Below, in pieces: positions 5,516-60,794 of a DNA stretch of 64,000 nucleotides. The first letter of the stretch is position 1. Each line of letters opens with the position of its first letter. The notes below the pieces were generated by a model, which saw only the letters and a program-made list of their open reading frames with translations, was not told where the DNA came from and searched no databases. Made by a program: the position numbers and the translations under genes. Location of the stretch: the NCBI GenBank assembly GCA_965207575.1, contig OZ242288.1, positions 2,941,467 to 3,005,466 of the forward strand. The letters run 5' to 3'. The DNA is from an uncultured Candidatus Binatia bacterium (lineage in GTDB: Bacteria > Desulfobacterota > Binatia > Bin18).

Positions 5516-5666
5516 CTAGAGCAAATTACGATGCTGTGTAGCCGCCCGTCATTCCTGCGCAAGCAGGAATCCAGGCCCTCGGCCTCCCTGGCCGCTGGAT
5601 GCCGGATCAAGTCCGGCATGACGAGAGCGGACTGGTACGACTACAACGTATCGTAAACCGCTCTAG
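5516..5666 (+). repeat. MITE-like structured repeat, copy A
   Basis: Terminal inverted repeats CTAGAGCAAATTACGAT / ATCGTAAACCGCTCTAG. Internal hairpin modules CATTCCTGC-GCAA-GCAGGAATC and GCCGGA-TCAAG-TCCGGC. Same modules recur at about 43965, 45758, 48849 and 62085. Confidence 0.55.
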
Positions 5667-6151
5667 CCAACAAAGAGTGTGTAGGGTTTGCCGTTCAGAT
5701 GAATGAGTTCTTGCGGGGCCAGCAGGCATTTTTCCTGGGAGAGCACGCGGCTGGCGATCTCCCGATTGATGGGCGGCACCTGCTCCAATTGCTCAATCTG
5801 CTCCAGGGTCAAATACTCGGCGCGGTCAACCTCTTCCATATCTGGCTGCGGCTCACCGCGCAGCGGTTTCATCAGCAGGACGATGTACAGGCTGTTGCCA
5901 ATGTCGGGATCACACCGATTCCGCAGGCCAATGACGCCCTGCACCTCTCCGGTCACGCCGGCTTCCTCGCGGACCTCGCGGACGACGGCCCGCTCGATGG
6001 TTTCGTCCGGCTCGACAAAGCCGCCCGGAACCTGCCAGTTCCCCCTACCCCGCCGTGAGGCGCGGCGCACGAGCAGCAGACGGTTGTCGCGCACGACCGC
6101 GCCACCAACGCCAAGGTTGTAGCCACGGTTATACCGTTCGGGGATGGGCAT
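5663..6151 (-). CDS. NUDIX hydrolase
   Basis: NUDIX box GGFVEPDETIERAVVREVREEAGV (GX5EX7REVXEEXGU). Confidence 0.8.
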   Translation of the reverse strand: MPIPERYNRGYNLGVGGAVVRDNRLLLVRRASRRGRGNWQVPGGFVEPDETIERAVVREVREEAGVTGEVQGVIGLRNRCDPDIGNSLYIVLLMKPLRGEPQPDMEEVDRAEYLTLEQIEQLEQVPPINREIASRVLSQEKCLLAPQELIHLNGKPYTLFVG

Positions 6152-19836: not shown

Positions 19837-19857
19837 CCTTCTCCCGCGGGGAGAGGG
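19837..19857. promoter_or_regulatory. Intercistronic hairpin CCTTCTCCC-GCG-GGGAGAGGG, 5' of the RidA ribosome-binding site
   Basis: Inverted repeat read directly. Member of the recurring CCCTCTCCC/GGGAGAGGG hairpin family (also at 21538-21564 and 60774-60794). Confidence 0.4.
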
Positions 19858-21462: not shown

Positions 21463-21489
21463 GTCGGATTAACGCAGTGTAATCCGACA
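21463..21489. repeat. Hairpin GTCGGATTA-N9-TAATCCGAC immediately 3' of D-aminoacylase 1
   Basis: Near-identical copy lies immediately 3' of D-aminoacylase 2 (35280-35305). Confidence 0.5.
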
Positions 21490-21575
21490 ACGCAAGGGGT
21501 TCATTTGGTGGGTGGCCGGGGCGCACTCGTGGCGGACCTCCCCCTCCCCCAAGGGGAGAGGGAGTTAGGAAGAGA

Positions 21576-23258
21576 CTAGACCTGACCCGAACGCAGCACC
21601 TGGCCCGGCATGGCCCCGGTATGTTTGCCATCGTCGAACAGCACTTCTCCGTTCACGATCGTGTACTGCACGCCCTGGGCCGGCATGACCAAGCGCCGTC
21701 CGCCACCGGGCAGGTCGGCTCGCATCTCGCCGCGGCGGGCCGAGCCCACCGTGTTGTAGTCAAAAATCGCAAAATCGGCCGCCATGCCTGTTGCGATCTT
21801 GCCCCGCGTGGTCATCCCGTAGAACGCGGCCGGCTCGGAGGTAATCCGCCTTACCGCGTGCTCAAGCGTCATGGCTTGTCTGTCCCGCACCCAGGTGCCG
21901 AGCAGATAGGTGCAGTAGCCGGCGTCACACAGCATGTCCACATGGGCTCCACCGTCCGACAGGCCGACCATGACCTGGTCGTGCGTAATCAGCTCGGGAA
22001 TGCGGTCTTCGTCGGCGTTGAACAGCTCGTAGGTATACTGGAGTTGCAGGTCATCCTCGATACACAGGTCCAGGAAGGTGTCGAGCCCGTCTTTACCGCG
22101 CTCCCTGGCAATCTCGGCCACGCTCTTGCCCATCAGGGATTGCATGGCGGGATTACCCACCTCATGGACGATGGCGCGTTCCCATTTACCCGAGAACACC
22201 TTGGGCGACTCCATCTCTTTGCGGAATGCGGCCCGGAAGGATTCATCTCTGTAGAACGCCTTCTGCTTCTCAATCGGCTGATCGAAGGCCGGCTTCCAAC
22301 ACGGCAGGTTGGCAAAGATGAACGGTTTGCGCAGGTCGATCTGAATAATGAGTGGACGACAAGTTACCTGCGGAATGGCGCCCTTCTCGAACAGCGGCTC
22401 AATCGTGCGCAGGGTATTCATGGCTGCATCCGGCTGATCGTCCCGGTTCAGCAGCGCCAGCCAGGTGACCTTGCGGCCGCTTTCGGTCAGGAGCATGTCC
22501 AATAAGGCATGCTCGGTTTCGTCAACAATAGAGACATTATTGGTCAGGGCGAGTTCGATACTGCCCTTGCCGAGTTCTTTAAGCGCGTTGCAGTATGCCT
22601 TGAGTTCGTCCCAACTGGCATTACGGCAGGCAATCGGACGGCCTTTATAGCCGATGTGCTGAGCAACATTCGTGGTCGAAAAGCCAAAGGCTCCAGCGGC
22701 AACCGCCTCTTTAATCAGGGCCTTAATCTGTACGATTTCCTCGGGTGTGGCGCCCCGCTCCATTGACTCTTCGCCCATCACAAAGTGGCGGAACGGAGTC
22801 AGCGCGGCCATAAAGCCGATGTTAATGCCGCTCCCGCGCCTTTCGGCCGCATTCATATATTCGGGGAAGGTGACCCAATCCCAGGTTACGCCTTTGCCCA
22901 GCACGTCAAACGGGATGGCTTCCACGTTGACCAAGTCCCAGGCCGCGATGTCCTGCACCTCGGGTTTGCACGGAGCCAAGCCGACCCCACAATTACCCAT
23001 TACCAGACTGGTGACCCCATGCCAGGAAGAGGACGTGATCAGCGGGTCCCAGCAAATCTGGGCGTCATAATGAGTATGCGGATCAACAAAGCCGGGTGCC
23101 ACGATCAGGTCGGAGGCATCCACAACCTTCTTGGCTCCGTCCGAGACTTTACCGATTTCCGCAATCTTTCCGTTGGCTACCGCGATATCGGCCCGGTAGC
23201 GTTGTGCGCCGGTTCCATCCACCACGGTTCCGTTTTTGATGACGAGATCGTACGACAT
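21576..23258 (-). CDS. N-acyl-D-amino-acid deacylase (D-aminoacylase) family amidohydrolase, paralog 1
   Basis: 560 aa; metal-binding motifs DPHTHYD and NCGVG typical of the D-aminoacylase subfamily of amidohydrolases. Confidence 0.8.
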   Translation of the reverse strand: MSYDLVIKNGTVVDGTGAQRYRADIAVANGKIAEIGKVSDGAKKVVDASDLIVAPGFVDPHTHYDAQICWDPLITSSSWHGVTSLVMGNCGVGLAPCKPEVQDIAAWDLVNVEAIPFDVLGKGVTWDWVTFPEYMNAAERRGSGINIGFMAALTPFRHFVMGEESMERGATPEEIVQIKALIKEAVAAGAFGFSTTNVAQHIGYKGRPIACRNASWDELKAYCNALKELGKGSIELALTNNVSIVDETEHALLDMLLTESGRKVTWLALLNRDDQPDAAMNTLRTIEPLFEKGAIPQVTCRPLIIQIDLRKPFIFANLPCWKPAFDQPIEKQKAFYRDESFRAAFRKEMESPKVFSGKWERAIVHEVGNPAMQSLMGKSVAEIARERGKDGLDTFLDLCIEDDLQLQYTYELFNADEDRIPELITHDQVMVGLSDGGAHVDMLCDAGYCTYLLGTWVRDRQAMTLEHAVRRITSEPAAFYGMTTRGKIATGMAADFAIFDYNTVGSARRGEMRADLPGGGRRLVMPAQGVQYTIVNGEVLFDDGKHTGAMPGQVLRSGQV

Positions 23259-23274
23259 GACTCCTCCTTGTTGT

Positions 23275-23340
23275 GGGGGTTAGGGGCTAGGGGTTGGGGG
23301 TTGGATTTGTTCATCCCTAACCCCCAACCCCTAGCCCCCA
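23275..23340. promoter_or_regulatory. 56-nt perfect palindromic G-rich hairpin with G-quadruplex-capable GGGGTTAGGGGCTAGGGGTTGGGGG motif, between the CoA-transferase and D-aminoacylase genes, just 5' of the aminoacylase ribosome-binding site
   Basis: Arms 23283-23302 and 23319-23338 are perfectly complementary (20 bp). The loop itself contains GGAT/ATCC pairing. Confidence 0.6.
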
Positions 23341-23351
23341 GTCCCTCATTC

Positions 23352-24656
23352 TTAAATTACTCCTTCGTCCTGAAACGCGTCCATTTCTGCCTGGCTCAAG
23401 CCGAGCAATTCTTTATAGACATATTCATTATCTTCCGCATAGCACGGCGCAGCGCGTTCGGTCGGTCCGCCCTGATTCACCAGCCCGTTGGCAAAATGAA
23501 ACGGAATATTCTTGATCGGCCAGGTTCCGATCTCGCTGTGCTCCAGGGGCAGCAGCCAGTTCAGGTGTTTGAGCTGCGGGTCGCGTTCGATCCGGTCCTG
23601 CGCGGTCTGACACACGCCGGCAGGAACGCCAGCGGCCTGTAAACGTTCTTGCAGGCCAAAGGGCTCCTGCTCCTGCGTCCAGGCGCTCACCAGTCGGTCC
23701 AACTCGTCCTGATGTTGCAGCCGCTCGACCGGCGAGGCAAACCGCTCCTGGGCCGCCCAGTCGGGGTTGCCCATGATGCGGACCAGGGCTTGCCATTCTT
23801 CTTCGGACGTGACGGCGATGGCAATCCAGCGATCATCGCCGGCGCAGGGATAGGCGCCGTGCGGGGCCGCGGGTGTATAGGGCGAACGATTGCCCGTACG
23901 CTGATAGTGGCGGCCATTGACCGCGTGATCCAGCACCGCGGTGCCGGTCATGCCAATGCCGGGTTCTACTTGCGAGCAGTCCAGGTACTGGCCCTTGCCC
24001 GTCCGTTTTTTATAGTACAGGGCCATGAGAATGGTCATGGCACAATAATACGCGCCACTCCAATCCATATACGAAAATCCCCAGCCGGCAGGAGGATGGG
24101 GGGCGGGCAAACCGGACTGTTCGGTCAGGCCACTCACGGCCTGGGCAATTGGTCCGTAGGAAGCGTATTTCACGTAGGGACCTTTATAGCCCCAACCGGG
24201 CTGCTGCATATAAATAATATCCGGCTTAATGGCTTTGAGGGTGTCATAACCGAGCCCCCATTTTTGCATGGTCTCGGCCGTAAAGGCCTCAACGACCACA
24301 TCACTGACCGCAACTAGCTTTTTGAACAGCTCGCGGCCCTGGGGCGCTTTCATATTCAGACTGATCCCATATTTACCGGCATTGATATCGTTAAAATACC
24401 CACCACGATTGACGCTTTGGATCTTGCCGGTATCCAGGCCGGTCAGGTCCATGGCCCCGGCCTTTTCGGTCGACTCTTTCGTGCGGGAGGCAAACGGCGG
24501 CATATAGCGCAGAAAATCCAGCCGATCGCGCCATTCAATGCGAATGACTTCCGCCCCCAGGCTGGCCAATAAGCGCGGCCCGCCCGCCCCGGCCAGCAGC
24601 CAGGTCAGGTCTGCAATCCGCACACCTTCCAAAGGTCTTCTTTTTTTCACGCCCAC
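23352..24656 (-). CDS. CoA-transferase family III (CaiB/BaiF) protein, subunit 1
   Basis: 434 aa; CaiB/BaiF family sequence with the conserved Asp-containing active-site region. Confidence 0.8.
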   Translation of the reverse strand: MGVKKRRPLEGVRIADLTWLLAGAGGPRLLASLGAEVIRIEWRDRLDFLRYMPPFASRTKESTEKAGAMDLTGLDTGKIQSVNRGGYFNDINAGKYGISLNMKAPQGRELFKKLVAVSDVVVEAFTAETMQKWGLGYDTLKAIKPDIIYMQQPGWGYKGPYVKYASYGPIAQAVSGLTEQSGLPAPHPPAGWGFSYMDWSGAYYCAMTILMALYYKKRTGKGQYLDCSQVEPGIGMTGTAVLDHAVNGRHYQRTGNRSPYTPAAPHGAYPCAGDDRWIAIAVTSEEEWQALVRIMGNPDWAAQERFASPVERLQHQDELDRLVSAWTQEQEPFGLQERLQAAGVPAGVCQTAQDRIERDPQLKHLNWLLPLEHSEIGTWPIKNIPFHFANGLVNQGGPTERAAPCYAEDNEYVYKELLGLSQAEMDAFQDEGVI

Positions 24657-26912: not shown

Positions 26913-28991
26913 ATGAGACTCATTGGGGTTGACGTAGGCGGGACATTCACCGACGCGGTCTTTGCCGACACCCGGACGGACCGGTTGGCCATCCATAAGG
27001 TGCCCACGTCTCCAGACGACCCCTCCCTTGGGGTCATGCGCGCGATCACCGAGCTCTGTCACCACCAGACCATCCCGCTCGACAGCATTGCCCTGATCTA
27101 CCACGGCACCACGATCGCCACCAACGCCCTGCTGGAATATAAAGGCGCGACCGCGGGCATGATGACCACCCAGGGTTACCGCGATATTCTCCATATCGGG
27201 CGCCACCAGCGGCCCCATCACTACTCCATCCAGCAGGAGATTCCTTGGCAGGATCGCCCCCTGGTCCGCCGCCGCCATCGCAAGGGCGTTCCGGAGCGAC
27301 TCGTTCCGCCGCATGGTGAGGTTCTGATTCCGCTCGATGAAGCCGCGGTCCGTCAGGCGGCCCGCGAGCTCAAAGACGCCCGGGTTGAATCGATTGCCGT
27401 CTGTTTTTTGTTCTCGTACCTCAACGCCGAGCATGAAAATCGCGCCCGTGAGATCATTCTCGAAGAATACCCCGAGGTCTTTGTCACCACCTCGGCCTCC
27501 CTCTCCCCCCAGTTCCGCGAGTTTGAACGGTTTACCACGACTGCCATTAACGCTTTTATCGGCCCCACCGTCCACCGCTATGTTTCGCAATTGGAGCAGC
27601 GCCTGCGCAGCGCCGGGATTGGGGCCGAGCTGCGTATCATCCGCTCCAACGGCGGGCTGGCCACCCCCCGGGTGGTTGCCCAAAAGCCCGCCCTGACCCT
27701 GCTGTCCGGCCCAGCCGCGGGCGTGCTCGGCGGAGCCTGGACGGGCGAGCGGTCGCAGCGCACCCGGCTCATTACCTTTGATGTGGGCGGCACCAGCGCC
27801 GATATCGGCGTGGTGACGGACGGGCAATTCAGCGAAGCCACGGCCCGCGATACCTGGATAGCCGGCTATCCGGTTCTGGTCCCGATGATCGACATCCACA
27901 CCATTGGCGCCGGCGGCGGCAGCATTGCCCATATTGACCCAGGCGGAGGTTTTCGGGTCGGGCCACACAGTGCCGGCTCCCAGCCGGGCCCGGCGGCCTA
28001 TGGTCGCGGGGGAACCCAGCCCACGGTCACGGACGCCAATATCCTCCTGGGTCGGCTGGACACGGAAAATTTTCTCGGCGGTGCCATGGCGCTTGATGCC
28101 GCAGCCGCCGGGCGGGCCATTCATGCTTTGGCCGATCCACTTGGGTTGTCGGAACTGGAAACGGCCGAAGGGATCGTGACGATTCTCAATAGCAATATGG
28201 CCAATGCCATACGCTCGCGCACCGTACAGAAAGGCATTGACCCGCGCGCCTACGCGCTGATCGCCTTTGGCGGGGCCGGTCCGCTCCACGGCGCGGAGGT
28301 CGCCCGCCTGCTGGGCGTTCCGGAGTGCATCGTCCCCCCCTACCCCGGTATTACCTCGGCCGTTGGCCTGCTGACTACGGATGTCAAATACGATGCGACC
28401 CGGACCGCCTTTCAGGTCTCGACCGCTTTTGATCTGCCCCGGCTCAACGCGGCGTTTACGCAGATGCAAAACGAACTGCACCAACAGTTCAGCGACGACG
28501 GCATTGCCCAGACCGCAGTCACATTTACGCGTTTTGCCGATGTGCGCTACGTCGGCCAGGGCTATGAGCTGCGGGTCGCCGTGCCCGAGGGTCCACTCGA
28601 TGCCGCCGCGCTCGACCGCATCACTGAGCGTTTTCACCGGCAGCACGAGTTGGAGTACGGTCATTTCTTCGTGGACAGCCCGATTGAAATCGTGACCATC
28701 CGTCTGGTCGGAGTTGGCCAGGCGCAGAGAATCCACGCCGCGTCTTCATCCGGCTCCGGCTCGCTCCAGGCCGCGCTGGTCAAAACCCAGCCGTCGGTAT
28801 TTCGGGTTCAGAACGAGTTGCGCAGTCTGGAGACTGCCTTTTACCGGCGAGAACGGCTCCCGGTCGAAGAGGTGGTTGCCGGTCCGGCGGTCATCCTGCA
28901 AACAGACTCGACCACCGTGGTTCCGCCGGATTGTACTTTTCAACTCGACCCCCACGGGAATCTGCTCATTCAGATAGGAGGGGCAGCATGA
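26913..28991 (+). CDS. hyuA: Hydantoinase/oxoprolinase A subunit (HyuA family), paralog 3
   Basis: MRLIGVDVGGTFTDAVFAD... ; divergent from the TetR gene. Confidence 0.85.
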   Translation: MRLIGVDVGGTFTDAVFADTRTDRLAIHKVPTSPDDPSLGVMRAITELCHHQTIPLDSIALIYHGTTIATNALLEYKGATAGMMTTQGYRDILHIGRHQRPHHYSIQQEIPWQDRPLVRRRHRKGVPERLVPPHGEVLIPLDEAAVRQAARELKDARVESIAVCFLFSYLNAEHENRAREIILEEYPEVFVTTSASLSPQFREFERFTTTAINAFIGPTVHRYVSQLEQRLRSAGIGAELRIIRSNGGLATPRVVAQKPALTLLSGPAAGVLGGAWTGERSQRTRLITFDVGGTSADIGVVTDGQFSEATARDTWIAGYPVLVPMIDIHTIGAGGGSIAHIDPGGGFRVGPHSAGSQPGPAAYGRGGTQPTVTDANILLGRLDTENFLGGAMALDAAAAGRAIHALADPLGLSELETAEGIVTILNSNMANAIRSRTVQKGIDPRAYALIAFGGAGPLHGAEVARLLGVPECIVPPYPGITSAVGLLTTDVKYDATRTAFQVSTAFDLPRLNAAFTQMQNELHQQFSDDGIAQTAVTFTRFADVRYVGQGYELRVAVPEGPLDAAALDRITERFHRQHELEYGHFFVDSPIEIVTIRLVGVGQAQRIHAASSSGSGSLQAALVKTQPSVFRVQNELRSLETAFYRRERLPVEEVVAGPAVILQTDSTTVVPPDCTFQLDPHGNLLIQIGGAA

Positions 28992-35279: not shown

Positions 35280-35305
35280 GTCGGATTAGCGTAGCGTAAT
35301 CCGAC
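35280..35305. repeat. Hairpin GTCGGATTA-N8-TAATCCGAC immediately 3' of D-aminoacylase 2
   Basis: Same stem as 21463-21489. Confidence 0.5.
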
Positions 35306-46181: not shown

Positions 46182-48659
<2,478 letters not shown>

Positions 48660-48997: not shown

Positions 48998-51979
48998 TTA
49001 GGGTGTGGCATATACCTTGTACGAACTGATCTGGTTGTTCAGCCCGTACGCGCCCAAACCGACCGCCTGCGGCCCCACGAAGGTCTGCGTCGGGCCACCG
49101 AAGGCCCAGTCGCGGAACACCTCTACGGTATAGCCCGCCCCGATGCGGAGACTGGAGACCCGATCGTTGTGCGTCCCCCCGATCCACGCCACCTCCACCG
49201 GGCCCGTATGCACGATCTCCCAGCCGCCCGCCCCATTCACCCCCTGGTCCCGTAACACCAGCGCTTCGGCCGCCACGGGCGTGGCATACAGCTTGTACGA
49301 ACTGATCTGGTTGTCCAGCCCGGACCCGGCCAAATCCACCGTCTGCGGCCCGACATAGGTCAGCCGTGCCCCCGTGTAGTTCCAATGGCGGAACACCTGC
49401 ACGGTATAGCCATCCCCGATGAGGAGGCTGGAGACCGCATCATTGTGCGCCCCCCCCATCTCCGCCACCTCCACCGGACCCGGATGCGCGGTCTCCCAGC
49501 CGCCCGCCTCCGCCGGTCCATGTTCCCGCAACATCAGCGCCGGCGCGACATATACCTTGTACGAGCTGATATCGTTGTTCAGCGTATCCCCGGCCAAATC
49601 CACTGTCTGTGGCCCGATGTAGGTCTGCCGCGTGCCCTTGAAGCTATAATAGCGGAACACCTCCACGGTGTAGCCAGCGGCAATGGTGAGGCTGGAGATG
49701 ACATTATTGTCCCCCGGCACGAGCCGGCGTACCTCGGCCGGCGCACTATGCACGATCTCCACCCCGCCTGTCTCCCCCACCCCCTTATCCCGCAACACCA
49801 GTACCTCGGGGGACGTTCCCGCCGAGGTGAGAGACAGGCGGTAAGAGCTGACATCATTGTTCAGGGCGGCCAAATCCACGCTCTGCGGCCCCACGTATCT
49901 CTCCCGCGCTCCCCGGAAGACGTCTCGGCGGAACACCTGCACGGTATAGCCATCCCCAATGAGGAGGCTGGAGACCTGATCGTTGTCCGCCCACCCGATC
50001 CACCGCACCTCGACCGGATCGTCGTGCGCAATCTCCCAGGCGCTGGTCTCCCCCAACTGACTCTCCCGCAACACCAGCGCCTCGGCTACGGCCACAGCAG
50101 GCGTGACGTAGAGCTTGTAGGAATTGATCCGGTTGTCCAACACATGCCCGGTCAAATCCACGCTCTGCGGCCCCACATAGGTCTGCCGCGCCGCCTTGAA
50201 GTTGTCATAGCGGAATACCTCGACAGTATAGCCATCCCCGATGAGGAGGCTGGAGACCTGATCGTTGCGCGCCCCCAGCGACGCCACCTCGACTGGCGCA
50301 GTCTGCGTGATCTTCCAGCCGCCCGCCTCATGCAACCCGTGCTCCCGCAACACCAGCGGCGCGGAGGTCGTAAACGGATCGGTGTTCACAATAATCTCCG
50401 GCAACGGGTCTATTTGGACGGTCTCCTCCCCCAGGGCCAGCTTGACCGCACGGTAGGCGTTGAGCCGACGACCGTCGGCCAGATTCCTCTCCCGTGGATC
50501 GACATTGCCGGCGGCGTCCAGCCCATCGAACGCCTCAATGATGTCGGCGGAGGCGCGGAGCTTGGCCTTCAACTCACCGGGGGTCAGGGTGGGTTTGACC
50601 ATCAACATCAGGGCCGCCACGCCCGCCACTTGCGGGGCGGCAAGAGAGGTGCCTTTTCGATTGTCGTCTAATGTTGGGATCCAAAGTGCCCCGGTGGCAA
50701 TATCGATATGGGAACCATAGGTGGAGCGAACCCAAATGAGTTCCCCGTTATCATCCCAGTCCCGTTCCGTGCCGCCCACCTGTATCACGTTGTCCAGGCC
50801 GGGCCAACATTGCTGCCCACTGAGACTCACCGCAGACGCAAAGTCCGCCGGCAGGTGTACAGCGTCAGCTCCCCCCGATTCCTTAGGGGAATTTCCGGCA
50901 GCAATGACGAACAGCCCGGCTGAATAATCCTGAAGGGCCTGGTACTCTACTATCAACGAGTTGGCCGGCGTCAGACTATAGTCGGTACAGCTCTGATAGG
51001 CATGATAGTGGGCCAGACTCACATTGATAATATCCAACTGGTTGTGCCGCGCGAAATCCACGCCTTGGACGGCGTCCAGCGTGGTGAAAGAGAGATCGCC
51101 AACCCGGATGCCCACAAGCTCGACATCCTGGGCCACCCCGAAGCTGCCATACCCATTATTGAACTCCCCGGCGGCCACCCCGGCCACCAGGGAGCCATGA
51201 TCATCAGAGACAGTATTGGGGTCCGCATCGTGCGTGTCTCCCACAAAATCCCGGCCGCCATTACACGTGGTCATCGCGCCATTCTCATCCCGACAATTGG
51301 TCTTGCTCCATTTCTTCCCGGCTAGATCTCGGTTGCTGAAGTCCACGCCCGTATCGAGTATGCCAATCGTGATGGGTCCGGCCCCAGTGGGCCGGGCCTG
51401 CGCGCGGTCCCACACCTCATCCCACGCATCTCGGAGTTGGATCGCCTTGAGATGCCAGGCCGCACGGCGGCCTGGGTCGGGATTGGAGGTCTGGTCCGTG
51501 GTGTAGGCCGCACTGGTCTGGTGGGGGTAGTACAGGAAGTTGGGTTGCGCGTGCAGCACGCCGGCGAGTGGGCTGGTCTTGAGCCGGGCGATGACGGTGT
51601 GGGGGTCTTCCTCCTCCCCCAGGGCAATCGCTTCGGTCTGGAGGGAGTCGATGCGCGTCATCACCTCCGCCGACGGGAAGCCGTTGGTCCGCAGCAGGTC
51701 ATCGACCACGCCCACCGGCCTGAGTGGAATGTCAACATCAGCCTGGTCCCCCACGAACCCGCCGAGTCCGCCGGGCAACTTGTCCCAGAGATCGTCCAAG
51801 AGGTCTTCGAGATGGGCGGTGTAGACCGTCTCGTCGTATTGAATCAACACCACCCCCATTTCGTAGGCGGGGGCGGCCCCCGGGTCGCCCGGAGTGGGCT
51901 GCGCCAGGACTGAACCCCCCAGGAAGAGCGCGGCGAGACACCCGCCAGCGAGGAAACGCAGGGTTTTCAATAGCAGCAT
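48998..51979 (-). CDS. Secreted subtilisin-like (S8) serine peptidase, tandem paralog with about six beta-gamma-crystallin-like repeats
   Basis: Same architecture as 46182-48659. Start taken at MLLLKTLRF (51979), matching the paralog and the duplicated 5' region. Confidence 0.8.
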   Translation of the reverse strand: MLLLKTLRFLAGGCLAALFLGGSVLAQPTPGDPGAAPAYEMGVVLIQYDETVYTAHLEDLLDDLWDKLPGGLGGFVGDQADVDIPLRPVGVVDDLLRTNGFPSAEVMTRIDSLQTEAIALGEEEDPHTVIARLKTSPLAGVLHAQPNFLYYPHQTSAAYTTDQTSNPDPGRRAAWHLKAIQLRDAWDEVWDRAQARPTGAGPITIGILDTGVDFSNRDLAGKKWSKTNCRDENGAMTTCNGGRDFVGDTHDADPNTVSDDHGSLVAGVAAGEFNNGYGSFGVAQDVELVGIRVGDLSFTTLDAVQGVDFARHNQLDIINVSLAHYHAYQSCTDYSLTPANSLIVEYQALQDYSAGLFVIAAGNSPKESGGADAVHLPADFASAVSLSGQQCWPGLDNVIQVGGTERDWDDNGELIWVRSTYGSHIDIATGALWIPTLDDNRKGTSLAAPQVAGVAALMLMVKPTLTPGELKAKLRASADIIEAFDGLDAAGNVDPRERNLADGRRLNAYRAVKLALGEETVQIDPLPEIIVNTDPFTTSAPLVLREHGLHEAGGWKITQTAPVEVASLGARNDQVSSLLIGDGYTVEVFRYDNFKAARQTYVGPQSVDLTGHVLDNRINSYKLYVTPAVAVAEALVLRESQLGETSAWEIAHDDPVEVRWIGWADNDQVSSLLIGDGYTVQVFRRDVFRGARERYVGPQSVDLAALNNDVSSYRLSLTSAGTSPEVLVLRDKGVGETGGVEIVHSAPAEVRRLVPGDNNVISSLTIAAGYTVEVFRYYSFKGTRQTYIGPQTVDLAGDTLNNDISSYKVYVAPALMLREHGPAEAGGWETAHPGPVEVAEMGGAHNDAVSSLLIGDGYTVQVFRHWNYTGARLTYVGPQTVDLAGSGLDNQISSYKLYATPVAAEALVLRDQGVNGAGGWEIVHTGPVEVAWIGGTHNDRVSSLRIGAGYTVEVFRDWAFGGPTQTFVGPQAVGLGAYGLNNQISSYKVYATP

Positions 51980-60773: not shown

Positions 60774-60794
60774 CCCTCTCCCAGGGGGAGAGGG
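60774..60794. promoter_or_regulatory. Perfect hairpin CCCTCTCCC-AGG-GGGAGAGGG immediately 5' of the dppA ribosome-binding site
   Basis: 9-bp perfect inverted repeat; same family as 19837-19857 and 21538-21564. Confidence 0.45.

What the first reader, a model, noticed from the sequence alone, without database searches (positions are those of the whole stretch)
23275..23340. Perfect 56-nt G-rich palindrome with a telomere-like G-quadruplex motif between the CoA-transferase and D-aminoacylase genes
GGGGCTAGGGGTTGGGGGTT (23283-23302) pairs perfectly with AACCCCCAACCCCTAGCCCC (23319-23338) across a 16-nt loop that itself contains GGAT/ATCC. The G-strand has four G4+ tracts with 3-nt spacers (GGGGTTAGGGGCTAGGGGTTGGGGG), a canonical G4-forming pattern, and the C-strand is a potential i-motif. 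The element lies inside a presumptive operon, ending about 15 nt upstream of the aminoacylase AGGAGG ribosome-binding site. It is a candidate mRNA-stability, processing or translational-control element, or a REP-type sequence.
Basis: seen in the sequence. Interest (0 to 1): 0.5.

Follow-up and report, generated by a model that had tools for sequence, protein, structure and literature searches.

The report
G-rich heptamer-repeat hairpin between two genes
The palindrome is real, but it is a fast-changing hairpin built from 7-base G-rich repeats, a kind of intergenic repeat already described in Xanthomonas and Nostoc. It is missing or much shorter in most close relatives, so it is probably not a conserved regulatory switch.

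Summary
There are perfect 20-nt arms at 23283-23302 and 23319-23338, a 16-nt loop, and an RNA fold of about -60 kcal/mol (z about -8). The genes lie on the minus strand. The element fills the 93-nt gap between a family III CoA-transferase and an Amidohydro_3 gene whose homologues are named D-aminoacylase.

Each arm is a tandem array of 7-nt units (GGGGYTR). A scan of reference genomes found this motif in at least 120 loci across many phyla, nearly always inside longer heptamer arrays. These arrays typically start right after a stop codon. About 20% are paired with a downstream C-rich arm, always in the order 5'-G arm then C arm-3'. Rehm et al. 2015 reported the same architecture and placement for GGGAATC and GGGGAYT repeats.

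Among close relatives the element is unstable. Eighteen loci carry a 52-54-nt short form, one has no element, and one lineage has a homologous long form. More distant orthologues carry different heptamer hairpins at the same site.

G4-aware folding still predicts the hairpin. There is no U-tract, no Rfam match and no second copy in the window.

Verdict: this is a new member of a known kind of repeat. It probably folds as an mRNA stem-loop with at most a modulatory effect.

The parts
23319..23345 (-). 5' arm on the mRNA (G-rich when read on the minus strand: GGGACTGGGGGCTAGGGGTTGGGGGTT). It is a tandem array of about 4 heptamer units. The perfect part is 23319-23338.
   Evidence: TRF reports period 7 with 3.7 copies. 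G4Hunter score reaches 2.56.
23303..23318 (-). Loop region of 16 nt. It contains a 4-bp inner helix, GGAT (23303-23306) with ATCC (23313-23316), closing a 6-nt apical loop.
   Evidence: The sequence GGGATGAnnnAATCC is shared with the long form in L217/L218.
23276..23302 (-). 3' arm on the mRNA (C-rich when read on the minus strand: AACCCCCAACCCCTAGCCCCTAACCCC). The perfect part is 23283-23302. On the mRNA strand the continuous stem is 22 bp, including one G.U pair.
   Evidence: TRF reports period 7 with 4.4 copies.
23352..24656 (-). Upstream gene, a family III CoA-transferase. Its stop codon TAA lies at 23354-23352, 6 nt before the first G tract of the element.
23261..23269 (-). Ribosome-binding site AAGGAGGAG of the downstream gene. 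It lies 6 nt after the extended C arm and 13 nt after the perfect arm.
21576..23258 (-). Downstream gene, an Amidohydro_3 protein of the N-acyl-D-amino-acid deacylase type. Its start codon ATG is at 23258-23256.

Best explanation
The element is an inverted pair of G-rich heptamer simple-sequence repeats. On either strand it reads (GGGGYTR)n, a loop, then (YARCCCC)n.

Shown here:
- Both arms are period-7 arrays.
- The motif belongs to a class spread across many bacterial phyla. These arrays start right after stop codons. When they are paired, the order is always G arm 5' and C arm 3'.
- At this locus the number and sequence of units change between close relatives.

Inferred:
- The arms grow and shrink by replication slippage of 7-nt units.
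- The arms are kept complementary by copying of one arm from the other (intrastrand template switching at a quasi-palindrome), with or without selection for pairing.
- The window's perfect 20-22-bp version is young.
- Once transcribed within the CoA-transferase/amidohydrolase mRNA, the element folds into a stem-loop of about -60 kcal/mol rather than a G-quadruplex. A stem of this kind should block 3'-to-5' exonucleases, which would stabilise the upstream cistron. At 22 bp it is long enough to be an RNase III substrate, and it may pause RNA polymerase. Any of these would loosen the coupling of the two cistrons.
- Because short and empty alleles exist in the same operon, this effect is modulatory or incidental and not an essential control.
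For: Anatomy.

Class membership. The hits lie in Acidobacteriota, Planctomycetota, Gemmatimonadota, Chloroflexota, Cyanobacteria, Proteobacteria, Bacteroidota and others. In some searches, 97 of 126 runs have 4 or more G tracts although the pattern requires only 3. Of 109 runs away from locus edges, 22 have a C-run within 120 nt downstream and 0 have one upstream. In one search the median distance to the neighbour on the 5' side is 11 nt, against 130 nt on the 3' side. When that neighbour is co-directional (37 cases), the array starts a median of 4 nt after its stop codon.

Literature match. Rehm et al. [quoted passage not shown] They report 70-75 convergent inverted pairs per Xanthomonas genome. 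Repeat length differs between species while the type is kept. Transcripts start or stop at these repeats more often than at controls.

Instability at this locus. L121 and L203-L215 share an identical 52-nt short form. L220-L223 carry a 52-54-nt short form, L216 has a 23-nt gap, and L217-L219 carry a homologous long form. L217 and L218 come from the same sample yet differ inside the G arm. The long and short states are scattered on the amidohydrolase gene tree.

Arm complementarity. Two adjacent pairs differ on both sides between the window and L217/L218.

Hairpin over G4.
Against: There are no transcript data, so folding, processing and stabilisation in vivo are all inferred.

The slippage and template-switch steps are inferred from end states only. 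MAFFT can also explain the short form as a single 44-nt deletion of the hairpin apex.

The covariation signal is weak. It rests on 2 adjacent pairs in 3 long sequences, and 63 of 500 shuffles reach the same value.

Folding the sense and antisense strands of orthologous gaps gave no consistent strand preference, so action at the RNA level is not demonstrated.

Distant syntenic orthologues often have a hairpin at this same gap: 5 of the 12 related gaps folded have z of -3 or lower, and 2 more are marginal. This could mean that selection for some hairpin here is stronger than I assume.
Confidence: 0.6

Rival explanations
1. It is a selected, locus-specific regulatory hairpin. In this reading it acts as a REP-like mRNA stabiliser, an RNase III processing site or an attenuator, and it sets the expression ratio of the CoA-transferase and the amidohydrolase.
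For: Distant syntenic orthologues (CoA-transferase 75-84% identical) often carry a hairpin of unrelated sequence at the same gap: 5 of the 12 related gaps folded have z of -3 or lower. The arms are perfectly complementary even though the order of unit variants is non-uniform. Two pairs show compensatory changes. Rehm et al. found transcript ends enriched at such repeats.
Against: The same operon in close relatives has a 52-nt form that folds no better than shuffled sequence (z = +0.1), or no element at all (L216). In the distant genomes, heptamer hairpins also fill several other gaps of the same loci, so the habit is genome-wide and not specific to this locus. Five of the 12 related gaps folded do no better than shuffles.
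Confidence: 0.2
2. It is a G-quadruplex / i-motif switch. The four G tracts fold into a G4 (and the C arm into an i-motif) in DNA or RNA, and this controls transcription or translation.
For: The G arm has at least 4 G tracts and a G4Hunter score up to 2.56. On its own it is predicted to form a G4 at -14.2 kcal/mol, against -6.9 without G4 energies, so a transient co-transcriptional G4 could form before the C arm is made. Related heptamers fold into G4 in CD experiments, and 4 units is the preferred number (Rehm 2015). In one search the most common tract count is 4. The strict order of G arm first (22 to 0) would suit a kinetic G4-then-hairpin scheme.
Against: A perfectly complementary arm lies 16 nt away. 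With G4 energies enabled the full region still folds as the hairpin at -59.5 kcal/mol. Orthologues place non-G heptamer hairpins at the same site, with units such as GTAAAAC, CAGCTNT and GGATTTG. The short and empty alleles lack four G tracts.
Confidence: 0.07
3. It is a mobile or dispersed REP/REPIN or MITE copy that inserted between the two genes.
For: It is an extragenic palindrome. Many motif hits in other genomes lie at contig ends, and some MAGs have several copies. The motif also occurs in 28 viral-contig stretches.
Against: There is a single copy in 64 kb, whereas the window's real REP-like palindromes recur. The outer units and flanks are shared with the short form and with L147, and the differences lie inside the arms. 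There is no target-site duplication relative to the empty site in L216. Rehm et al. found no association of such repeats with mobile elements.
Confidence: 0.05
4. It is a transcription terminator that ends the CoA-transferase transcript, either an intrinsic terminator without a U-tract or a bidirectional one.
For: The stem is very stable and GC-rich and lies directly after a stop codon. Rehm et al. saw transcript ends enriched at such repeats.
Against: Neither strand has a T/U run after the stem, and the terminator scan does not flag it. No promoter-like site lies between the hairpin and the amidohydrolase start, whose RBS follows within 6-13 nt. The gene order is conserved as a block from the TetR gene to the glyoxalase gene.
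Confidence: 0.05

Closest known systems
G-rich heptameric simple-sequence repeats of Xanthomonas (GGGAATC) and Nostoc (GGGGA(C/T)T), including convergent inverted pairs (Rehm et al., PLoS One 2015, PMC4692102)
   Same: It shares the 7-nt unit with a G tract, the intergenic location between co-directional genes, and about 4 units per arm. The G strand lies on the coding strand just after a stop codon, and the C strand on the coding strand just before the next gene. It also shares the paired convergent arrangement that can form a stem-loop, and a unit number that varies between related genomes (searches compared).
   Different: The unit is GGGGYTR, not GGGAATC or GGGGAYT. The host is a sponge-associated lineage that NCBI labels Desulfurellaceae. 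Only one copy is seen in 64 kb, against about 180 per Xanthomonas genome. The GGGGYTR version is spread over many phyla, and I did not find that described in the paper library.
Cyanobacterial short tandemly repeated heptanucleotides (Calothrix, as cited in Rehm 2015) and TAACTGA heptamer repeats of Beggiatoaceae and Cyanobacteria (MacGregor 2015, PMC4679880)
   Same: These are also intergenic tandem heptamers with stop codons in all three frames. They sit close to gene ends and have a patchy distribution across phyla.
   Different: They are mostly direct arrays upstream of start codons. Only one inverted case is reported for TAACTGA. They are not G-rich and do not form long perfect hairpins.
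REP / BIME / REPIN extragenic palindromes
   Same: REPs are extragenic palindromes that can form an intercistronic mRNA hairpin. From general knowledge, the REP in the E. coli malE-malF operon protects upstream mRNA from 3' exonucleases, which is the behaviour I expect here.
   Different: REPs are dispersed, near-identical copies linked to RAYT transposases. This element is unique in the window and is made of internal tandem units that vary by slippage. The window does hold other palindromes that behave like REPs.
Rho-independent terminators
   Same: Both have a GC-rich stem-loop after a stop codon.
   Different: This element has no U-tract, and it lies inside a conserved co-directional gene block with the next RBS 6-13 nt away.

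Membership tests
G-rich heptameric SSR, inverted-pair type (Rehm et al. 2015) | Tandem units of 7 nt, each with a G tract | tested here: met
   TRF reports period 7 with 4.4 and 3.7 copies at 23274-23304 and 23315-23340. The units read GGGGTTA, GGGGCTA, GGGGTTG, GGGGGTT.
G-rich heptameric SSR, inverted-pair type (Rehm et al. 2015) | Intergenic, with the G strand on the coding strand within 50 bp after a stop codon and the C strand on the coding strand within 50 bp before the next ORF | tested here: met
   On the mRNA the first G tract starts 6 nt after TAA. The C arm ends 6-13 nt before the RBS. The same rule holds for the 120 loci.
G-rich heptameric SSR, inverted-pair type (Rehm et al. 2015) | Two arrays in convergent orientation that can form a stem-loop | tested here: met
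   Across genomes the orientation 5'-G arm then C arm-3' is seen 22 times and the opposite 0 times.
G-rich heptameric SSR, inverted-pair type (Rehm et al. 2015) | Unit number varies between related genomes | tested here: met
   Long, short, empty and variant forms occur in relatives.
G-rich heptameric SSR, inverted-pair type (Rehm et al. 2015) | Unit consensus GGGAATC or GGGGA(C/T)T | tested here: not met
   The unit here is GGGGYTR. It is the same kind of repeat with a different sequence family.
G-rich heptameric SSR, inverted-pair type (Rehm et al. 2015) | Many copies per genome | not testable with these tools
   Only 64 kb of the source genome is available, and it holds one array. Several other MAGs have 2-3 hits each.
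G-rich heptameric SSR, inverted-pair type (Rehm et al. 2015) | G4 formation in vitro | not testable with these tools
   Only a prediction is available. The G arm alone is predicted to form a G4 at -14.2 kcal/mol, while the full element is predicted to form the hairpin at -59.5.
REP / REPIN | Dispersed near-identical copies in the genome | tested here: not met
   The window holds no second copy at up to 3 mismatches. The rest of the genome was not available.
REP / REPIN | Association with a RAYT (Y1 transposase) | not tested
   The window's ORFs were not screened for RAYT.
MITE | A discrete insertion with terminal inverted repeats and a target-site duplication relative to an empty site | tested here: not met
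   The empty site (L216) and the short form share flanks and outer units with the long form. No duplication is present, and the differences lie inside the arms.
Intrinsic terminator | GC-rich stem followed by a U-tract | tested here: not met
   The stem is present, but there is no T run on either strand and the scan does not list it.
Any Rfam family | Score at or above the family's gathering threshold | tested here: not met
   The whole window gave 0 matches at gathering thresholds. The only hits are to generic miRNA-hairpin models, at 41 bits or less against thresholds of 47-110.
RNase III substrate (behaviour, not a sequence family) | About 20 bp or more of continuous dsRNA | tested here: met
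   The mRNA strand has a continuous 22-bp stem. Cleavage itself is not testable here.

The most novel reading that the evidence does not exclude
The (GGGGYTR)n arrays may form a family spanning many phyla with a strict build rule: the array starts within a few nt of a stop codon, and when paired the G arm is always 5' of the C arm (22 to 0). In related genomes, hairpins of unrelated sequence keep the same 7-nt period. This could point to a sequence-independent process or factor tuned to a 7-nt period. One possibility is a co-transcriptional G-arm-first folding device that shields the C-rich arm from Rho or marks operon-internal processing sites. Another is a dedicated mutational mechanism that builds heptamer palindromes after stop codons.
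Probability: 0.12. Interest if true: 0.65.

Novelty: new member of a known kind. Interest (0 to 1): 0.3.

Why it matters
For this locus it matters little. The operon exists with a long hairpin, a short one or none, so the element is not a key control.

The wider pattern is more useful. The same G-rich heptamer motif recurs after stop codons in many bacterial phyla with a fixed arm order. It extends a class so far characterised in Xanthomonas and Nostoc, and its function and origin are still unknown.

The natural long, short and empty alleles in co-occurring sponge symbionts offer a ready-made comparison. They could be used to test whether such hairpins change cistron ratios or transcript ends.

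Tried and rejected
1. Rfam, at gathering thresholds over the whole window and at permissive E-values over 1 kb. It gave only sub-threshold miRNA-hairpin noise.
2. Looking up the window's exact amidohydrolase to find the source contig. It is not on record, and none of the 120 genome loci matched the window. The source genome was therefore not recovered. Taxonomy rests on a protein about 98% identical (P0121), labelled Desulfurellaceae bacterium, and on MKWU01, the Aplysina aerophoba sponge metagenome.
3. Comparing sense and antisense folds of orthologous gaps, to find the strand under selection from the asymmetry between G.U and C.A. The results were mixed: G-type hairpins fold better on the antisense strand by 6-8 kcal/mol, and others fold better on the sense strand. 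This was inconclusive.
4. Covariation counting on the 3 long forms. It found 2 compensatory pairs, which is not significant.
5. Promoter and terminator scans. They found nothing at the element.
6. A literature search for the literal motif strings. It found no bacterial description.
7. Polarity of long versus short form from a neighbour-joining tree. The states are scattered and the base of the tree is unresolved. The L224 distance in that table is an alignment artefact caused by a 3-codon insert.
My rough estimate is that tens to a few hundred hits would be expected by chance for the bare 18-mer. The evidence for non-randomness is therefore the flanking array structure, the positions and the polarity, not the count.

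Full report
**1. The observation**

The sequence is as described. GGGGCTAGGGGTTGGGGGTT at 23283-23302 is the exact reverse complement of 23319-23338. The 16 nt between them contain GGAT and ATCC. The repeat finder extends the arms to 27 nt at 89% complementarity (23276-23302 / 23319-23345). It ranks this first in the window; the next inverted repeat has 19-nt arms at 89%. The 20-mer has no other match in 64 kb at up to 3 mismatches, and 100 shuffles gave none.

As RNA, the 81-nt region folds at -59.5 kcal/mol with z = -8.1. As DNA it folds at -30.6 kcal/mol with z = -6.7. This is far beyond chance.

**2. Gene context**

Both flanking genes are on the minus strand. The upstream gene, 23352-24656, matches CoA_transf_3 at 1.7e-94. 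The downstream gene, 21576-23258, matches Amidohydro_3 at 5.5e-33. JGI names its homologues N-acyl-D-amino-acid deacylase.

The mRNA reads as follows: TAA, GAATGA, GGGACTGGGGGCTAGGGGTTGGGGGTTAGGG, ATGAACAAATCC, AACCCCCAACCCCTAGCCCCTAACCCCC, ACAAC, AAGGAGGAG, TC, ATG. On this strand the continuous stem is 22 bp, including one G.U pair. There is also a 4-bp apical helix and a few outer pairs.

No T run follows the stem on either strand. The terminator scan does not list it, and no promoter-like site lies in the gap. Rfam gives nothing at gathering thresholds. At permissive thresholds it gives only generic miRNA-hairpin hits.

**3. What the arms are made of**

Each arm is a tandem array of 7-nt units. 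TRF reports period 7 with 4.4 and 3.7 copies. The unit consensus is GGGGYTR.

**4. The same motif in other genomes**

The hits come from these groups:
- Acidobacteriota (Terriglobia, Bryobacteraceae, Solibacteraceae, Holophagae)
- Planctomycetota
- Gemmatimonadota
- Chloroflexota
- Cyanobacteria
- Alpha-, Beta- and Gammaproteobacteria
- Bacteroidota
- Deinococcus
- Armatimonadota
- Actinomycetota
- Binatia
- Poribacteria

The raw count is not informative. By my own estimate a bare 18-mer of this composition would give tens to hundreds of chance hits in 596 Gb. The context of the hits is informative:
- 97 of 126 runs have 4 or more G tracts, although the pattern demands only 3.
- Of 109 runs away from locus edges, 22 have a matching C-rich array within 120 nt downstream. 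These represent about 19 distinct hairpins. None has one upstream.
- With crude ORF calls, 67 runs are intergenic with both neighbours visible. The neighbour on the 5' side of the G strand is a median of 11 nt away, against 130 nt on the 3' side.
- When the 5' neighbour is co-directional (37 cases), the array starts a median of 4 nt after its stop codon.

The window's element obeys each of these rules.

**5. The literature**

Rehm et al. 2015 (PMC4692102) describe G-rich heptamers in Xanthomonas (GGGAATC) and Nostoc (GGGGA(C/T)T). Their main findings are:
- The repeats are intergenic and favoured between co-directional ORFs, with a preference for 4 units.
- They fold into G4 in CD experiments.
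- There are 70-75 cases per Xanthomonas genome of two arrays in convergent orientation that can form stem-loops.
- Array length differs between X. campestris and X. axonopodis, while the type (single or inverted pair) is kept.
- Transcripts start or stop at these repeats more often than at controls.
- No function was established.

MacGregor 2015 (PMC4679880) describes TAACTGA heptamers with a patchy distribution across phyla. A search for the literal GGGGCTA/GGGGTTA strings found no bacterial description.

The architecture and placement rules are therefore known. The GGGGYTR unit and its wide spread were not described in the papers I could search.

**6. Close relatives**

The window's exact protein is not on record. 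There is, however, a cluster of amidohydrolases 91-98% identical to it. One member, about 98% identical (P0121), is labelled Desulfurellaceae bacterium. It also occurs in MKWU01, the Aplysina aerophoba sponge metagenome.

All of these loci keep the same gene block: TetR gene, two CoA-transferases, amidohydrolase, glyoxalase, methyltransferase. The gap between the CoA-transferase and the amidohydrolase differs between them:

| Loci | Amidohydrolase identity to the window | Gap |
|---|---|---|
| L121, L203-L215 (14 loci) | 97.5-97.9% | Identical 52-nt short form: TAA CAATGAGGGATTGGGG ATGAAAACC TAACCCCCAGAAC...; folds no better than shuffles (z = +0.1) |
| L220-L223 | 95.3% | Same short form, 52-54 nt |
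| L216 | 96.8% | 23 nt, no element |
| L224, L225 | 90.7% | Unrelated 62-nt gap |
| L217, L218, L219 | 96.1% | Homologous long form with the same loop (GGGATGAnnnAATCC) and the same inner C arm (AACCCCCAACCCCTA) |

Further details on the long form:
- Compared with the window, two adjacent pairs are changed on both sides: GGGGCTA/TAGCCCC against GGGATTG/TAATCCC. This is suggestive but not significant.
- L217 and L218 come from one sample and encode the same protein, yet they differ inside the G arm. This is variation at the level of strains.

On a neighbour-joining tree of the amidohydrolase DNA, the long and short states are interspersed. At least two state changes, or recombination, are needed within about 10% divergence.

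The short form can be read in two ways. It may have lost 2-3 heptamers from each arm while keeping the loop (my alignment). Alternatively it may result from a single 44-nt deletion of the hairpin apex (MAFFT). I cannot decide between these.

**7. Distant syntenic orthologues**

In metagenome loci whose CoA-transferase is 75-84% identical, the same gap usually holds a hairpin made of heptamer-like units of a different sequence:
- GGGCTGG / GGTGCTG: L128, L131, L134, L135. Here the TAG stop codon is part of the first unit.
- GGGATTA / GGGGATA: L147. It shares its outer units with the window.
- GGGATTT: L137, L148.
- GAATTGC: L136.
- CAGCTNT: L140.
- GTAAAAC: L124.

L126 and L127 hold an unrelated palindrome. 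L125 holds nothing.

I folded 12 related gaps: 11 from these distant loci and the short form of the close relatives. Five have z of -3 or lower, two are marginal and five are no better than shuffles.

These genomes also carry heptamer-periodic hairpins in several other gaps of the same loci. The habit is therefore genome-wide in that clade and not specific to this gene pair. In the window's own 64 kb this is the only period-7 array.

**8. Hairpin or quadruplex**

With G4 energies enabled, the full gap still folds as the hairpin at -59.5 kcal/mol. The G arm plus loop alone is predicted to form a G4 at -14.2 kcal/mol, against -6.9 without G4 energies. A G4 could therefore exist only briefly, before the C arm is transcribed. 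Non-G hairpins at the same site in orthologues argue that pairing and the 7-nt period persist, not G4 capacity.

**9. Mechanism**

What is shown: the anatomy, the class rules, the instability at this locus, and the thermodynamic preference for the hairpin.

What is inferred:
- The arrays change by slippage of 7-nt units.
- The arms hold a non-uniform order of unit variants (CTA, TTG, TTA) and are still perfectly complementary. Independent slippage in each arm would not produce this. It points to copying of one arm from the other (template switching at quasi-palindromes, a known mutational route), to selection for pairing, or to both.
- The perfect version in the window is young.
- In the mRNA the stem should act as a barrier to 3' exonucleases. 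It is long enough to be an RNase III substrate.
- The outer C tract lies 6 nt from the RBS and pairs weakly with it in one predicted fold.

Because short and empty alleles coexist with the same operon, I rate any effect as modulatory.

The test for which strand is under selection was inconclusive.

**10. Families considered**

- REP/REPIN: rejected for now. The element is single-copy in the window, whereas genuine REP-like palindromes in the window recur.
- MITE: rejected. There is no discrete insertion and no target-site duplication.
- Intrinsic terminator: rejected. There is no U-tract.
- G-rich heptameric SSR inverted pair: all structural and positional features are met. Only the unit sequence differs.

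**11. Verdict**

The element is a new member of a known kind of repeat.

Interest is modest for the locus itself. It is somewhat higher for the rule seen across phyla (G arm first, directly after a stop codon, 7-nt period), which remains unexplained.

Noticed in passing
window 21537-21562 (-); also 19848-19857 and 60785-60794; half sites at 27499 and 34764: CCCTCTCCCC(N2-4)GGGAGAGGG hairpins occur right after stop codons and recur 3-5 times in the window. In relatives the motif continues as GGGAGAGGGCCGGGGTGAGGGG, and scaffolds break into runs of N there. This looks like a REP-like dispersed family.
   Followed up: partly
window 21463-21488 and 35280-35305: Two copies of a palindrome, GTAGGTCGGATTAnCG...CGTAATCCGACA, which is REP-like with a GTAGG head. 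One lies in the gap between the amidohydrolase and the glyoxalase gene.
   Followed up: partly
L210:3684-3860: In one close relative an IS (DDE_Tnp_1 transposase) is inserted exactly in the CCCTCTCCCC...GGGGG hairpin downstream of the amidohydrolase.
   Followed up: no
L131:1040-1160, L134:1055-1150 and 5560-5725, L136:1010-1100, L140:2360-2480, L142:1015-1135, L124:3595-3740: Other gaps in the distant orthologous loci hold long hairpins whose arms are heptamer arrays of other units, such as AGCnnTC/GCTGAAA, TTAGTTC/AACTAAT and GAATGAA/ACTCTTA. They often start right after a stop codon. Some have 5-bp helices separated by 2-nt internal loops, repeating every 7 nt. What sets the 7-nt period is unexplained.
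   Followed up: partly
L124:437-512, L126:870-924, L127:1097-1147, L131:2434-2487, L134:2401-2430: Tandem arrays of 8-9-nt units (TGAATCAA, ATTGAATC, AGACTCAAT), with 4-10 copies, lie just upstream of the CoA-transferase gene in several distant orthologues. The position is conserved and the function is unknown.
   Followed up: no
L132:3829-3960: A variant of L131 in which the C arm of the hairpin runs straight into the amidohydrolase coding sequence at about codon 50 (...VAPGFIDPHTHYDA). The RBS and the 5' end of the gene are missing. This is either a deletion next to the repeat or an assembly artefact.
   Followed up: no
L121:5690-5860: In this relative the gap between the amidohydrolase and the glyoxalase gene carries a 9-nt tandem array, (GGACCCAAA) about 6 times, which is absent from the window. 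L203/L206 carry a duplicated 14-mer, AGAGATGCCGCCAA. Gaps in this clade are repeat-rich and variable.
   Followed up: no
L226-L253 (viral contigs): The motif GGGGYTAGGGGYTGGGGG also occurs in 28 stretches of IMG/VR viral contigs, some with 2-3 matches.
   Followed up: no
window 46198-47010 and 49001-50358: Two arrays of a 276-nt tandem repeat (2.9 and 5.0 copies, 69-74% matches), probably repeated coding domains. Each holds a copy of the palindrome GGTGGCAATATCGATATGGGCACC (47346 and 50693).
   Followed up: no
L122 and L123: Amidohydrolases 87-88% identical to the window's sit in a different context, directly after a TetR gene and without the CoA-transferases. Some genomes hold two such genes on one contig, so these are paralogues.
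   Followed up: no
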